From NCBI RefSeq assembly GCF_009914755.1, contig NC_060947.1: DNA of 64,000 nucleotides. One strand, 5' to 3'. This document shows, in pieces, positions 37,417-62,580 of this stretch. Below the pieces are notes generated by a model. The model was not told where the DNA came from. It saw only the letters and a list, made by a program, of their open reading frames with translations, and did not search any database. Within the stretch, counting starts at the first letter, position 1, and the number at the start of each line of letters is the position of its first letter. The stretch comes from the human T2T-CHM13v2.0 reference genome, Homo sapiens. The position numbers and the translations under genes are program-made.

Positions 37417-38708
37417 AATTCAGGCTGCTCTTGGATCTGTTAATGAGTCTGGGTGCAAGTGGAGGGTCCAGTTTGCATCTTGGGGTTATGAAACTAACCA
37501 CTTCAAACACAGTTGTGTGTTCTGAGCCTCTTATGGTTGTTACTCTAAAAATGTAATGACAATTGTAAACTTTCAAATATTTATCCTAACATACATGATA
37601 AATTGCAAACTTGGGTTTCAGACATATTTCCTATGAGCTAAGTATAAGAAATTTACTAATAAAAATTTTCTAATAGAGCAAAGTTGAGTCCCTGCAAATA
37701 ATGATTCTCAAAGCACTCTTACCTGTTCCAAATGAAAGAAAATGAACTAATGCTAGATATTGAGGAGGCTATTTTGAAGCTTGAAGGCAAGGTCACTTTG
37801 TTGGCAAATAGTAAGGCAGACTGAAGGAATTATAAGTAGTAACTGATACAGACTGGAGAGTCTGGGGGATATGGGGTGGTGTACTTTGTTTAGAATGAAG
37901 TTCTTACCTTAAAAACTAGGCCATGGATGGTTGTAGATCAACTAGGGTAAATGTAACTCCATCACCACTGTGAAGATAATCTTTGTTTACAATGGATCTC
38001 ACACATATTTAAAAGCTAAGTAAGCAGTGCTAATCGTATATATTCAACTGACAAAAAAAGAGAAGCACAATTGAAATTTGGATAACTTTAACCCATTTTA
38101 TGTGCATGCAAGATAGTGATTTAATAATTCATTACACTTTATTTGCATACCAAATTAATCCAGCTTTAAGAAATGAAATTTTACTATTTTACCATTGCGC
38201 ATTCTTCACACTGTAATAGTGCAGACTTCCCTTCAACTAGTTTATTTTAAATAATATAGATATGAAAAGCCTCAAAGAAACCATGAATCATGAAATTTAT
38301 TCATTCAGTCACCAAGAAAAATTTTCCTGGGGTGGGCACCTATCTGCTACAATGAATAGAGTGACTGCTCCCAAACAAATGCCTTCCTGAGCAAACAATC
38401 ACAAGTACCTAGGTGTGTTCTACCACCTTAAGAAACTCCTTCAGGCTACAGACTCTAAAATGTCCTCCAAAAAAAGGTAAAAAGATTGATACTTCCAAGC
38501 ACAGGCCACTCAGGGTGACCAGAGGTATCGGAAATAATATTTTCAATTAAAAATAATAATTTTTATAAAGTGCATAATACCAGACAAATACCACCATGCA
38601 AATTCATACAAAAGTCAATTTTACAAATAGCTTTTCATCACGTTACACTTTCCCATCCCCCTATCCAATATAGAAGGTTACAGATTGTAATACTTAGACT
38701 TAAAAATT
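37417..38708 (-). repeat. Left arm of 1,292-bp inverted repeat
   Basis: Base-by-base reverse complement of 61289-62580; 10 substitutions and no indels seen. Confidence 0.97.
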
Positions 38709-40390
38709 AATCTTTTGTCCATTCAACCTGGAAGTTTTCTGCTTATATAAATTAAGTATGAATGCAATAGGCTTCCTATCAATCTGGCTTCTAGGAACAC
38801 CATGATTAATTAGCCAATGGCAGAGCTCTACATTAGTCAGACTATTCTGATTGCTGCTTTGCCTCTGCTGTCCATTATGGTACCTACATCTACCTTGCCT
38901 TTGACAGCTGAGTGCCACCACTTGGCCCCTGCCACCTCAGGATCCAATTATTCCCATTGTACTTAAATTTTGTAGTTGAGTGACTGCAGTTCCCACTGCT
39001 AGATCTGACATACAGAGAAAAGCAATTACAGGGCTCTTCAAAGATGCAGGTGCTGCCCTCACAAATCTATTTTGCAAGGCATTGGTCAAGGATATATCTT
39101 CTGGATCCTCCCAGCTGGGATGAGTAGGTCTAAAGTGACTAATCCACTCCACCATCCCAATATCCCTAAGATTTTGGATCCCATCCTCTACATTAAACCA
39201 AGGGAGATCAGGCATTTCCAGCTTGCTCACAGTGGGCCATCTTTTAATCCATATTTCAGCTAACAAAGCAAATAGACTATTAGAACCTTTTCTATCTCCC
39301 TGAGCTGCAACATTAAATGCAGAATCCCTACTTACTGGGCCCAAATTAATACATTCAGCCTCATCCAAGTCTATGTTCCTTCCATCATTATCCCACATCC
39401 TTAATATCCATTCCCATTCCTGTTATCCAGATTTCCACTTATATAGATTAGAAAACTCAAGCAGTTTTTTTTGAGTGTAGTGCACCTCCAAATGGGTCAC
39501 ACTCTGAACCTCACCTCTAGGGGCCTGCTGGGACTTTAGTTATATGTCTAGAAGCAAACAGGGATGTTGGGGGTGGCTCCTGAGGAAAATAAACATTATT
39601 TTGTCTGGCAGCTACCTTACGGGAGGCCATCACTGTTGCCTCAGGCAGTGAAGGGTTTATCTCAGACAAAGATGGAAAGTCTGATGGCAGCATGGGTTGG
39701 GGAGGGGATGTTGCCACGACTAGGGGTGGAGAAGCTGTTCCTTCTGGCAAAAAAGGTTCATCAGAGTTTATAAGCTCAGTGTCCCCAGCTTCATCAGAGT
39801 CCCTGTTCCAAGTTGCATGGTCTCATTCTTTTCCAATCAATACCCTCACTTTAACAGTAGACACATGGCAAGGCTGTGCATGCACCTTTCATTTCAGGTC
39901 AGCCACTCACATGATAGGAGCTTGTATCTGTTTTTCCACAATTTTAGCTCTTTCTCTACAGAAGATAATACTCTCACTCAGGGCAATCTGAACAAACTTG
40001 AGGCTCAGTAACTGCTTCTGAAGCCAGGAGTTAGAATCCCTGAATTCATCATTTTCTTTCATCACTTTGTCCAGTGAGCTTAGGAGCAACCAGCCAACTT
40101 CATTATGTTCCTTGGTTCTCCACATATAGTGAAAGGTATTATGTATAGAGTCACTAAACTCCTTACCTCTCATGAGTGGTGAATCAGGAGTGTCAAATGC
40201 ATTATTTTGCATAACTCTCTAAACAGTTCATGCCATGGACTCTCAGTGTTCTCCATACTATTAGAAGTAGAGTCCTTAGCATTTTGGGGTCTAATCATAT
40301 TAAGCAGCCAACTCCAGAAACCCCCAAATCAATGAAAGAACTCCATCCTTAATATTCTGATACTCTAGAACCACTCCTGGTAACAAAATC
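38709..40390 (-). mobile_element. HERV-L internal 5' part (PBS, leader, decayed gag), truncated at the inverted-repeat arm
   Basis: gag-like ORF fragments 38937-39398 and 39907-40212; directly follows the MLT2A LTR. Confidence 0.85.
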
Positions 40391-40991
40391 TATATTACTC
40401 AGAGTTCTATAGAGGTATAGAACTATTAGAATATATATATACTAATATATATATACTAATATATATACTAATATATATACTAATATATATACTAATATAT
40501 ATATACTAATATATATACTAGTAAATATATATATACTAATATACATATATACTAATATATATATATATATATATATATATATATATATATATATATATAT
40601 GAGTTTATTAAGTAGTATTAACTCACACGATCACAAGGTCCCACAATAGGCCATCTGCAAGCTGAGGAGCAAGGAAGCCAGTCTGAGTCCCAAAGCTGAA
40701 GAACTTGGAGTCTGATGTTCGAGGGCAGGAAGCATCCAGCATGGGAGAAAGATGTAGTCTGGGAGGCTAAGCCAGTCTAACTTTTTCACGTTTTTCTGGC
40801 TGCTTCACATTCTGGCTGGGCTGGCAGCTGATTAGATGCTGCCCACCACCCAGATTAAGGGTGGGTCTGCCTTTCCCAGACCACTGACTCAAATGTTAAT
40901 CTCCTTTGGCAACACCCTCACAGACATGCCCAGGATCAATACTTTGCATCCTTCAATCCAATCAAATTGACACTCAGTATTAACCACCACA
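40391..40991 (-). mobile_element. MLT2A (HERV-L 5' LTR) with expanded TA-rich tract
   Basis: Reverse complement starts tgtggtggttaatactgagtgtcaatttgattggattg; characteristic internal (TA)n. Confidence 0.9.
40430..40600. repeat. (TATATACTAA)-like minisatellite plus (TA)n
   Basis: Directly visible. Confidence 0.95.
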
Positions 40992-41224
40992 GTGAGTGAG
41001 TTCTCACATTTGTTCATTTAAAAGTGTGTGGCATCTTCCCTACCCACTCTCTTGTTTGCTCCTGCTTTTGCCATTTGATGTGCCTGCTCCACCTTCACCT
41101 CCTGCCATTGTAAGCTTCCTTAGGCCAACCTAGAAGCCTAGCATATACCAGAACCATGCTGCCTGTAAATCCTGCAGAACAGTAAGCCAGTTAAAACTCT
41201 TCTCTTTATAAATTACCCAGTCTC
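40992..41224 (+). mobile_element. MST-family MaLR LTR fragment
   Basis: tttaaaagtgtgtggca...ctttataaattacccagtctc. Confidence 0.75.
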
Positions 41225-60778: not shown

Positions 60779-60814
60779 ATATATATATATATATATATAT
60801 ATATATATATATAT
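60779..60814. repeat. (TA)n microsatellite
   Basis: Directly visible. Confidence 0.95.
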
Positions 60815-61288
60815 GATGGAATACTACTCAACCGTAAAAAGGAATGAATTAGCACCATTTGCTGTGACCTGGATGAGACTGGAAACTATTATTCTAAGTG
60901 AAATTACTCAGGAATGGAAAACCAAACATTGTATGTTCTCACTGTTATGTGGGAACTAAGCTATGAGGATGCAAAGGCATAAGAATGATATGATGGACTT
61001 TGGGGACTTGGGTGGAAAGAGTGGGAAGGGCCAAGGGATAAAAGACTACAAATATGGTGCAGTGTATATGGCTTAGGTGATGTACGCACCAAAATCTCAC
61101 AAATCACCACTAAAAAATTTACTCATGTCACCAAATACCACCTGTACCACAACAACTTATGTAAAAATAAAATTTAAGAAACAAAAACAATAAAATAATA
61201 GCCATTTTGACTGGTGTGAGATGGTATCTCATTGTGGTTTGATTTGCATTTAATGATCAGTTTTATTTATTTTATAACTAGCAGCTAA

Positions 61289-62580
61289 AATTTTTAAGTC
61301 TAAGCATTACAATATGTAACCTTCTATATTGGATAGGGGGATGGGAAGGTGTAACGTGATGAAAAGCTATTTGTAAAATTGTCTTTTGTATGAATTTGCA
61401 TGGTGGTATTTGTCTGGTATTATGCACTTTATAAAAATTATTATTTTTAATTGAAAATATTATTTCCGATACCTCTGGTCACCCTGAGTGGCCTGTGCTT
61501 GGAAGTATCAATCTTTTTACCTTTTTTTGGAGGACATTTTAGAGTCTGTAGCCTGAAGGAGTTTCTTAAGGTGGTAGAACACACCTAGGTACTTGTGACT
61601 GTTTGCTCAGGAAGGCATTTGTTTGGGAGCAGTCACTCTATTCATTGTAGCAGATAGGTGCCCACCCCAGGAAAATTTTTCTTGGTGACTGAATGAATAA
61701 ATTTCATGATTCATGGTTTCTTTGAGGCTTTTCATATCTATATTATTTAAAATAAACTAGTTGAAGGGAAGTCTGCACTATTACAGTGTGAAGAATGCGC
61801 AATGGTAAAATAGTAAAATTTCATTTCTTAAAGCTGGATTAATTTGGTATGCAAATAAAGTGTAATGAATTATTAAATCACTATCTTGCATGCACATAAA
61901 ATGGGTTAAAGTTATCCAAATTTCAATTGTGCTTCTCTTTTTTTGTCAGTTGAATATATACGATTAGCACTGCTTACTTAGCTTTTAAATATGTGTGAGA
62001 TCCATTGTAAACAAAGATTATCTTCACAGTGGTGATGGAGTTACATTTACCCTAGTTGATCTACAACCATCCATGGCCTAGTTTTTAAGGTAAGAACTTC
62101 ATTCTAAACAAAGTACACCACCCCATATCCCCCAGACTCTCCAGTCTGTATCAGTTACTACTTATAATTCCTTCAGTCTGCCTTACTATTTGCCAACAAA
62201 GTGACCTTGCCTTCAAGCTTCAAAATAGCCTCCTCAATATCTAGCATTAGTTCATTTTCTTTCATTTGGAACAGGTAAGAGTGCTTTGAGAATCATTATT
62301 TGCAGGGACTCAACTTTGCTCTATTAGAAAATTTTTATTAGTAAATTTCTTATACTTAGCTCATAGGAAATATGTCTGAAACCCAAGTTTGCAATTTATC
62401 ATGTATGTTAGGATAAATATTTGAAAGTTTACAATTGTCATTACATTTTTAGAGTAACAACCATAAGAGGCTCAGAACACACAATTGTGTTTGAAGTGGT
62501 TAGTTTCATAACCCCAAGTTGCAAACCGTACCCTCCACTTGCACCCAGACTCGTTAACAGATCCAAGAGCAGCCTGAATT
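61289..62580 (+). repeat. Right arm of 1,292-bp inverted repeat
   Basis: Reverse complement of 37417-38708 (paired coordinates sum to 99997). Confidence 0.97.
62030..62580 (+). pseudogene. FNDC3CP: Duplicated FNDC3CP exons (62030-62089 and truncated 62453-62580) in the right inverted-repeat arm
   Basis: Reverse-complement copies of 37908-37967 and 37417-37544. Confidence 0.92.

What the first reader, a model, noticed from the sequence alone, without database searches (positions are those of the whole stretch)
37417..62580. 22.6-kb inversion inside the FNDC3C pseudogene, bracketed by a 1.29-kb inverted duplication
Seen: 37417-38708 and 61289-62580 are reverse complements. FNDC3-like exons left of 38 kb are on the minus strand, but the two exons that precede them in FNDC3A/B order (45520-45570 ...NIGKPV and 45882-46023 VSDSQ...KYNNIY) are on the plus strand and lead into plus-strand duplicates of the next two exons at 62030 and 62453. 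Inference: segment 38709-61288 is flipped relative to the downstream exons, and re-inverting it between the arms would restore exon order and strand. This fits either a staggered-break inversion or duplication followed by NAHR, and may have contributed to killing the gene.
Basis: partly seen in the sequence, partly recalled or inferred. Interest (0 to 1): 0.88.

Follow-up and report, generated by a model that had tools for sequence, protein, structure and literature searches.

The report
Doubly rearranged FNDC3C pseudogene with inverted repeat
A dead human X-chromosome gene (FNDC3C) has been scrambled by at least two adjacent flips of DNA, with a 1.3-kb mirror-image duplicate at the shared break, which is a tidy but ordinary fossil of a complex rearrangement.

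Summary
Positions 37417-38708 and 61289-62580 are a 1292-nt inverted repeat with 10 mismatches, and these are its only two copies in the genome.

Flipping 38709-61288 would make exons for residues ~486-1024 colinear on the minus strand. But the 5' exons (residues ~32-483) lie on the plus strand at 63512-68706, just beyond the right arm. One inversion therefore cannot restore the gene. The order (E-, D-, C+, D'+, B+) needs two adjacent in-place inversions sharing a breakpoint, or one multi-break event.

A clean staggered-break flip is contradicted:
- The left inner junction truncates an ERV-like element with 5-bp microhomology.
- That element's >=1.2-kb remainder is absent from 184 kb.
- The right outer junction cuts an exon, then carries A-runs and a 71-bp patch 96% identical to chr4.

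Nine of the ten arm mismatches lie in the terminal ~95 nt of each end (~4.7% there, against 0.09% centrally). This indicates an old duplication homogenised by gene conversion. A T2T-based call set of 41 human genomes lists no inversion here. This is a new example of a known kind, of low to moderate interest.

The parts
30775..36874 (-). Block E: FNDC3C pseudo-exons for aa ~616-1024 (P0011 numbering). RefSeq annotates only 30778-35219 as FNDC3CP.
   Evidence: tblastn and HMM. In-frame stops and frame changes. The exon at 30775-30933 matches the human FNDC3A FN3 domain 1x4x_A at E 3.8e-18.
37417..38708 (-). Left arm (D), the original copy. It holds exons D1 (37907-37966) and D2 (37406-37555, running 11 nt past the arm's outer end to its GT donor) plus 742 nt of upstream intron.
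   Evidence: The outer junction 37416/37417 is seamless: the exon continues to its donor site.
38704..38709 (.). Junction J1: the inner end of the left arm joined to a truncated ERV-like element. The 5 nt AAATT (38704-38708) are shared by both partners (microhomology).
   Evidence: In 6 of 6 other genomic copies used as queries, similarity runs to 38703/38704 and stops.
38709..40993 (-). ERV-like LTR element. The 5' LTR is at ~40993-40560, a (TA)n run follows, and the internal part runs 40400-38709, cut off at J1.
   Evidence: More than 1368 first-look candidates in the genome, of which 40 were scored, giving 43 matches. The 11 fetched copies all continue past the cut. Among the 6 whose downstream 1.2 kb was cut out, it stays alike: 4 of 5 comparisons over >=1.2 kb, the fifth over 982 nt. 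No continuation or second LTR was found in 184 kb. One ORF matches Pfam DUF5535 (E 2.9e-6) and three match nothing.
45520..46021 (+). Block C: exons C1 (45523-45579, aa 486-504, weak match) and C2 (45882-46021, aa 502-548, with one frameshift).
61289..62580 (+). Right arm (D'), the inverted duplicate. It holds D1' (62031-62090) and D2' (62442-62580), cut inside the exon 11 nt before the donor.
   Evidence: The inner side continues into old L1 fragments.
62581..62697 (+). Junction J2 filler: two A-runs around an 18-nt spacer (62581-62626), then a 71-nt patch (62627-62697) 96% identical to chr4:16413312-16413380, the only other copy in the genome. AATT precedes the A-run at both loci.
63512..64000 (+). 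Start of block B on the plus strand. The first recognisable coding exon (aa 32-87) is at 63512-63679, 0.93 kb beyond the right arm. The block runs on beyond the window end (window-style coordinates, loci L003 and following): aa 69-93 at 64650-64724, aa 94-121 at 66114-66197, and aa 210-483 at 67870-68706 (large exon with 2 frameshifts and 2 stops).
   Evidence: First exon: tblastn E 3e-13 and HMM 2.4e-9. Exons beyond the window: (large exon E 7e-66).

Best explanation
This locus is the unitary pseudogene of FNDC3C. Its recognisable exons fall into blocks B (aa ~32-483), C (~486-548), D (~550-615) and E (~616-1024). The gene order should be B-C-D-E on one strand, but the chromosome reads E(-) D(-) | C(+) D'(+) | B(+).

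Shown:
- C and B are each inverted in place relative to D and E.
- A 1292-nt inverted copy of D (D') sits exactly at the boundary between C and B.
- Both novel junctions are untidy. J1 has 5-bp microhomology and truncates an ERV-like element. J2 cuts an exon and carries A-runs plus a 71-nt chr4-like patch.

Inferred (my preferred reading): there was one replication-type, multi-template-switch event of MMBIR/FoSTeS kind. An equivalent version is that such an event inverted the 5' block and left D' as a templated inverted insertion, after which recombination between D and D' flipped block C. Either version explains why D' lies exactly at the shared breakpoint.

Since then the two arms have been kept almost identical in their central 1.1 kb by gene conversion, and only the ~95-nt ends have diverged (~4.7%). 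That dates the duplication to roughly 10-45 Myr ago. The present orientation appears fixed in humans. No function is implied: the gene is dead in every block.
For: Structure:
- Exon map on 184 kb.
- Genome-wide, the only FNDC3C-like matches on chrX are in this locus.
- The signed order e d -c -b has three breakpoints, so it needs at least two reversals with one shared boundary (inference).

Junctions:
- J1 microhomology and truncation.
- The element's remainder and second LTR are absent from 184 kb.
- J2 filler and the chr4 patch, whose similarity starts at the junction-side AATT.

Gene conversion:
- 9 of the 10 mismatches lie in the terminal 96 + 94 nt, with perfect tracts of 885 and 216 nt between them.
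- With 10 random mismatches, P(tract >= 885) = 8.5e-5.
- Differences polarised by outgroup proteins: 3 derived in D', 1 derived in D, 1 unresolved. Both copies have therefore changed.

Fixation:
- Table S1 of PMC10150506 (41 genomes called on T2T-CHM13) has no chrX call between 74,579,335 and 78,894,644. It does list IR-type calls of 9-21 kb elsewhere on X.
Against: - No outgroup genomic DNA could be examined. The ancestral orientation (minus, 3' end toward TAF9B) rests on parsimony and on my recollection of the mouse gene order, not on any call.
- The third junction (distal end of the inverted 5' block) was not located. No other non-L1 high-identity inverted repeat exists in 184 kb.
- One complex event and two successive inversions give the same present structure, so they cannot be told apart here.
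- The direction of the chr4/X patch transfer is inferred only from its boundary coinciding with J2.
- The age rests on 9 differences in 190 nt (binomial range ~2-9%).
- The C1 exon match is weak (E 0.013-0.063).
Confidence: 0.55

Rival explanations
1. Two independent simple inversions at different times. One flips block C by staggered breaks or by duplication plus NAHR. A second, unrelated inversion flips the 5' block B, and its proximal break happens to fall at the outer edge of D' (breakpoint reuse, perhaps at the A-rich fragile site).
For: The present order is reachable by exactly two reversals sharing one boundary. The A-rich low-complexity sequence at 62581-62626 could be break-prone. Breakpoint reuse in primate inversions is the subject of PMC7605249 (title and abstract start seen only, in the listing).
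Against: It needs a coincidence of breakpoints to within a few nt of the arm end. It still needs loss of the ERV-like remainder and insertion of filler. It offers no mechanistic reason for D' to sit at the shared boundary.
Confidence: 0.25
2. A tandem duplication of the segment from upstream of B to mid-exon D2 came first, so J2 would be a head-to-tail duplication junction. An inversion spanning that junction and two deletions followed.
For: On the plus strand, C, truncated D' and then the start of B have exactly the topology of a tandem-duplication junction.
Against: It needs more events (duplication, inversion, two deletions of several kb). No second copy of B or C exons is left anywhere in 184 kb or on chrX.
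Confidence: 0.1
3. One reading: a single 22.6-kb inversion between the arms inside an otherwise colinear minus-strand gene.
For: The repeat and the strands of exons C and D/D'.
Against: Block B is on the plus strand directly beyond the right arm. The element cut at 38709 does not continue at 62581.
Confidence: 0.04
4. A very recent duplication (overall 0.8% divergence), with the terminal mismatches caused by error-prone synthesis near the junctions rather than by age plus gene conversion.
For: The mismatches hug both junctions, and 3 of the 4 polarised differences are derived in the copy D'.
Against: About 5% change over ~95 nt is orders of magnitude above reported breakpoint-associated mutagenesis (my recollection, not a call). 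One polarised change is in the original D. No polymorphism was called among 41 genomes, which is unexpected for a very young event.
Confidence: 0.05
5. Assembly artefact in T2T-CHM13.
For: None found.
Against: The arms are only 1.3 kb and have distinguishing end differences. No CHM13/GRCh38 misorientation entry begins with these coordinates in the supplement of PMC10150506.
Confidence: 0.01

Closest known systems
Inverted-repeat-flanked (NAHR-type) inversions of the human X, e.g. HsInv0347 (1.6-kb THE1C repeats, 7.1 kb) and the FLNA-EMD inversion HsInv0389 (PMC3961182, passages of Table 1 seen)
   Same: A short, highly identical inverted repeat pair brackets a segment of tens of kb on a chromosome rich in such events. 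The 885-nt perfect tract is an adequate recombination substrate.
   Different: Here no polymorphism is recorded. The arms are a duplicated gene fragment rather than a transposon or a large segmental duplication. The bracketed inversion is only half of the rearrangement.
Inversions with inverted duplications at their ends from staggered breaks (described in Drosophila; recalled, no paper read here)
   Same: A sequence that was single-copy before the event flanks the inverted segment in inverted orientation. One junction of each arm is seamless and the other is novel.
   Different: That model loses no sequence. Here the far end of the segment does not match the outside flank, at least 1.2 kb of an element is missing, and filler DNA is inserted.
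Complex genomic rearrangements by replicative template switching (FoSTeS/MMBIR), such as inverted duplications and DUP-TRP/INV-DUP (PMC11293582; only the abstract start was seen in the listing)
   Same: Several junctions close together, 4-5 bp microhomology, a short templated insertion from elsewhere, and an inverted duplicate of nearby sequence.
   Different: This one is an old, fixed germline event in a pseudogene rather than a de novo pathogenic copy-number change. Net copy gain is only 1.3 kb. The mechanism is inferred from the junctions alone.
Arm-to-arm gene conversion in palindromes and inverted repeats of sex chromosomes (recalled general knowledge)
   Same: Near-identity in the interior of the arms with divergence confined to the edges.
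   Different: The arms are tiny (1.3 kb) and the spacer long (22.6 kb). They carry dead exons, so no selective role is suggested.

Membership tests
FNDC3C (Fndc3c1) unitary pseudogene | Exons most similar to FNDC3C1 orthologues, in FN3-domain register | tested here: met
   57 proteins at E <= 1e-3 among 61 candidates. All that carry a descriptive name are FNDC3C1(-like) or unnamed FN3-domain proteins, and the rest are hypothetical, LOC-numbered or unnamed. 72-96% identity per exon to strepsirrhine proteins. The FNDC3A FN3 domain 1x4x_A matches at E 3.8e-18.
FNDC3C (Fndc3c1) unitary pseudogene | Disabling lesions and no intact copy elsewhere in the genome | tested here: met
   Stops or frameshifts in blocks B, C, D and E. 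The C-terminal third is absent. The only chrX matches are at this locus, and the other matches are FNDC3A (chr13), FNDC3B (chr3) and titin-like FN3 arrays (a stricter first look was used, so this is a floor).
FNDC3C (Fndc3c1) unitary pseudogene | Orthologous (syntenic) position between TAF9B and CYSLTR1 | not testable with these tools
   The human neighbours come from the hub's gene table. The mouse order is my recollection only.
NAHR-type inversion between inverted repeats | Inverted repeat pair of high identity bracketing the segment | tested here: met
   1292 nt, 99.2% identity, 885-nt perfect tract.
NAHR-type inversion between inverted repeats | Both orientations observed (polymorphism or difference between species) | tested here: not met
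   No call between chrX 74.58 and 78.89 Mb in 41 genomes. Not among the 7 chrX inversions of PMC6748972 or the chrX entries of PMC3961182. Other species could not be examined.
Staggered-break inversion with duplicated ends | Lossless: the far end of the inverted segment was formerly contiguous with the outside flank | tested here: not met
   The ERV-like element cut at 38709 continues for >=1.2 kb in other copies but not at 62581 or anywhere in 184 kb. There is 117 nt of filler at J2.
Replicative template-switch (MMBIR/FoSTeS-like) complex rearrangement | Microhomology at junctions | tested here: met
   J1: AAATT is shared by the arm end and the element in 6 of 6 query copies. J2: AATT is shared by the exon and the chr4 locus. 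The second depends on chr4 being the donor.
Replicative template-switch (MMBIR/FoSTeS-like) complex rearrangement | Short templated insertions and three or more junctions from one event | tested here: inconclusive
   The 71-nt chr4-like patch sits at J2. Whether all junctions arose at one time, and the third junction itself, could not be established.

The most novel reading that the evidence does not exclude
The locus is a datable fossil of a single germline multi-template-switch event in a catarrhine ancestor. That event inverted two adjacent blocks of a gene, copied 1.3 kb in reverse and pasted in 71 nt from chromosome 4. The resulting inverted repeat has since been kept near-identical by gene conversion for more than 10 Myr and may have toggled the 22.6-kb block in different primate lineages. 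If so, it is a compact natural system for measuring conversion and inversion rates of a minimal (1.3-kb) repeat.
Probability: 0.3. Interest if true: 0.45.

Novelty: new member of a known kind. Interest (0 to 1): 0.3.

Why it matters
The finding corrects and extends the annotation. FNDC3CP is not a 4.4-kb minus-strand remnant. It is a 38-kb, three-block, doubly inverted gene wreck reaching from 30775 to 68706.

It also gives a clean, small example of how a complex rearrangement creates its own inverted repeat, which then evolves in concert. This could be used to calibrate gene conversion and NAHR for repeats near the lower size limit.

It has no evident bearing on gene function or disease. The gene is dead, the arrangement appears fixed in humans, and inverted-repeat-flanked inversions are common on the X.

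Tried and rejected
- Retrocopy origin of D' (sense copy followed by A-runs). Rejected: the copy is unspliced, ends 11 nt before a donor at a non-A-rich site, has no convincing target-site duplication, and would leave the plus orientation of exon C unexplained.
- A-run at 62581 as the poly(A) tail of the element cut at 38709. Rejected: other copies continue >=1.2 kb past that point instead of ending.
- NAHR between inverted L1 pairs (e.g. 17528-21992 with 55623-60082, or 56840-60082 with 123704-126940) as the cause of the B inversion. Flipping those segments in silico does not give colinear exons.
- Search for a second inverted repeat bracketing block B. None was found, only Alu and L1 matches.
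- The apparent 6.6-kb direct duplication 23.1-29.8 kb / 47.6-53.7 kb. It carries L1 ORF1/ORF2-like frames and is read as two L1s of one subfamily.
- Looking for anthropoid FNDC3C1 proteins to infer the arrangement in monkeys. None appeared among the 57 hits (55 of them named) or the 28 hits. The best unnamed hit, P0021, is no closer to human than the lemur proteins are.
- Literature:
  - 'FNDC3C' gave 22 papers, of which 20 were listed. None concerned the human pseudogene, judged by title and abstract start.
  - TAF9B plus inversion terms gave 0 papers.
  - PMC13629690 and the preprint 10.1101/2021.12.20.472354 hold no passage on this locus.
  - The NAHRwhals supplement has no matching coordinate.
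  - The macaque supplement was unreadable.
  - The ape sex-chromosome supplement has number matches in unlabelled multi-species columns that I could not interpret.
  - bioRxiv supplements are closed. The tables of the preprints 10.1101/2021.12.20.472354 and 10.1101/2024.01.29.577884 may list this repeat pair.
- Earlier findings of the scan were not open.

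
Full report
OBSERVATION

The inverted repeat is exactly as described. The arms are 37417-38708 and 61289-62580, 1292 nt each, 22580 nt apart, with 99.226% identity and no gaps. Aligned with 120-140 nt of flank on each side, similarity starts and stops abruptly. A search of the whole assembly finds these two copies and no other. Chance is not an issue.

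EXONS

A window exon (30754-30969, minus strand) retrieved 57 proteins at E <= 1e-3 among 61 candidates.
- All that carry a descriptive name are FNDC3C1(-like) or unnamed FN3-domain proteins.
- They include three strepsirrhine primates and no anthropoid.
- The same exon matches a solved FN3 domain of human FNDC3A (1x4x_A, E 3.8e-18).

I then ran tblastn with these proteins and a profile of 31 full-length proteins on the window and on 120 kb fetched to its right. They place exons as follows, in Otolemur P0011 numbering.
- Block E, aa 616-1024: 36874 down to 30778, minus strand.
- Block D, aa 550-615: 37966-37907 and 37555-37406, minus strand.
- Duplicate D', aa 550-605: 62031-62090 and 62442-62561, plus strand.
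- Block C, aa 486-548: 45523-45579 (weak, E 0.013-0.063) and 45882-46021, plus strand.
- Block B, aa 32-483: 63512-63679, 64650-64724, 66114-66197 and 67870-68706, all plus strand.

Its first exon lies inside the window. AG/GT boundaries survive. Every block carries stops or frameshifts. Nothing matches the C-terminal third (profile positions above 1002) anywhere in the 184 kb. A genome-wide protein search finds FNDC3C-like matches on chrX only at this locus (a stricter first look was used, so weak matches may be missing).

WHAT THE ORDER MEANS

The gene order must be B-C-D-E on one strand. The chromosome reads E(-) D(-) C(+) D'(+) B(+). But B would remain on the plus strand, directly beyond D'.

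Written as a signed order, e d -c -b has three breakpoints. It can be reached by no fewer than two reversals, and those two must share the c|b boundary. That boundary is exactly where D' sits. So the finding is half of a larger rearrangement. I take the minus strand as ancestral, with the 3' end toward TAF9B. This is the most parsimonious assumption and agrees with my recollection of the mouse locus, but no call tested it.

JUNCTIONS

The left arm's outer end is seamless: exon D2 runs on to its donor. The right arm's inner end continues into old L1 fragments and is plausibly the original intron. The other two ends are novel junctions.

J1 (38708|38709) joins the arm to an ERV-like LTR element lying on the minus strand.
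- Its LTR is at ~40993-40560 and its internal part at 40400-38709.
- The family has more than 1368 first-look candidates in the genome.
- The 11 copies fetched all continue past the point where ours stops.
- Among the 6 whose downstream sequence was cut out, it stays alike over >=1.2 kb in 4 of 5 comparisons and 982 nt in the fifth.
- Our copy's similarity to them ends at 38703/38704, so AAATT is shared with the arm end (6 of 6 queries).
- The missing continuation and a second LTR are absent from all 184 kb.

J2 (62580|62581) cuts exon D2' 11 nt before its donor.
- It is followed by two A-runs around an 18-nt spacer.
- Then comes a 71-nt patch (62627-62697) that is 96% identical to chr4:16413312-16413380, the only other copy in the genome.
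- There is no similarity in the flanks, and AATT precedes the A-run at both loci.
- The rest of 62581-63500 is single-copy.

A lossless staggered-break inversion predicts that 38709 was once joined to 62581. That is not what is seen.

MECHANISM

Several features point to a replication-type template-switching event: microhomology, a short insertion apparently templated from another chromosome, loss of sequence, an inverted copy of nearby DNA, and closely spaced junctions. I prefer one of two equivalent readings.
- A single such event produced the present order.
- Such an event inverted block B and left D' at the breakpoint, after which recombination between D and D' flipped block C.

The two are recombinational isomers with the same junctions and cannot be distinguished from this sequence. 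The remaining alternatives are two unrelated inversions reusing a breakpoint, or a tandem duplication followed by inversion and deletions. Both need more coincidences or more events. The distal junction of block B was not found, and there is no second non-L1 inverted repeat.

AGE AND CONCERTED EVOLUTION

The 10 mismatches lie at arm positions 28, 52, 54, 62, 96, 982, 1199, 1233, 1267 and 1276.

| Arm region | Mismatches | Length (nt) | Divergence |
|---|---|---|---|
| Outer end | 5 | 96 | 5.2% |
| Centre | 1 | 1102 | 0.09% |
| Inner end | 4 | 94 | 4.3% |

An 885-nt perfect tract among 10 random mismatches has P = 8.5e-5.

Outgroup proteins polarise four of the five outer differences. Three are derived in D' and one (a CpG transition) is derived in D. 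Both copies have therefore changed.

This is the pattern of an old duplication whose interior is homogenised by gene conversion. The ends give ~4.7% divergence (9 of 190 nt, binomial range about 2-9%). At about 1e-9 substitutions per site per year (a recalled rate) that is of the order of 10-45 Myr, and it is a minimum.

IS IT POLYMORPHIC OR KNOWN?

- The chrX inversions of PMC3961182 (Table 1 passages) and the seven of PMC6748972 (supplement search) lie at other coordinates.
- Table S1 of PMC10150506 reports inversions called in 41 genomes on T2T-CHM13. I read its part 11 and searched the whole file. It has no entry between chrX 74,579,335 and 78,894,644, although it lists calls of 9-21 kb elsewhere on X.
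- No paper in the searchable library links FNDC3C, TAF9B or CYSLTR1 with an inversion.
- Several supplements could not be read (and all bioRxiv supplements).

The arrangement therefore appears fixed in humans and, as far as I could search, undescribed. It would nonetheless be visible in any self-alignment track.

VERDICT

This is a real and neatly interpretable structure, but of a familiar kind: an old complex rearrangement of a dead gene, with a small inverted repeat evolving in concert. Interest is low to moderate.

Noticed in passing
window 30775-37966 (-), 45523-46021 (+), 62031-63679 (+), and 64650-68706 (+, outside the window): The RefSeq span of FNDC3CP (30778-35219) covers only part of the recognisable pseudogene. 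Exons for aa ~32-1024 are spread over 38 kb in three blocks on both strands.
   Followed up: yes
68578-68706 in window coordinates (locus L003:4578-4706): The annotated lncRNA LOC107985669 (68618-86229, +, from the hub's table) starts inside the last pseudo-exon of block B. It may therefore reuse that exon's donor site.
   Followed up: no
window 62627-62697 and locus L027 (chr4:16413312-16413380): A 71-nt interchromosomal match at 96% identity with no flanking similarity. These are the only two copies in the genome. The direction of transfer is unknown.
   Followed up: partly
window 6072-30775: No trace of the C-terminal third of FNDC3C (about 370 aa) between the last recognisable exon and TAF9B. 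The interval is largely L1. The exons were either deleted or have decayed beyond recognition.
   Followed up: partly
window 43958-44534: A 290-nt tandem duplication (99.3% identity) inside the plus-strand L1 at 41243-44753.
   Followed up: no
window 23140-29760 and 47577-53742: Two colinear ~6.6-kb elements, 81-91% alike and in the same orientation, with L1 ORF-like frames. The RefSeq 'enhancer' 22853-24052 overlaps the 5' part of the first one.
   Followed up: partly
78449-83300 in window coordinates (loci L004-L005): A near-complete provirus-like element on the minus strand, with gag- and pol-like frames between two LTR-like direct repeats. It belongs to a different family from the element cut at J1.
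   Followed up: no
window 61200-61275: A short minus-strand L1 ORF2 fragment directly follows the tail of a plus-strand L1 3' end (60368-61199), only 13 nt from the inner end of the right arm. Its origin was not resolved.
   Followed up: no
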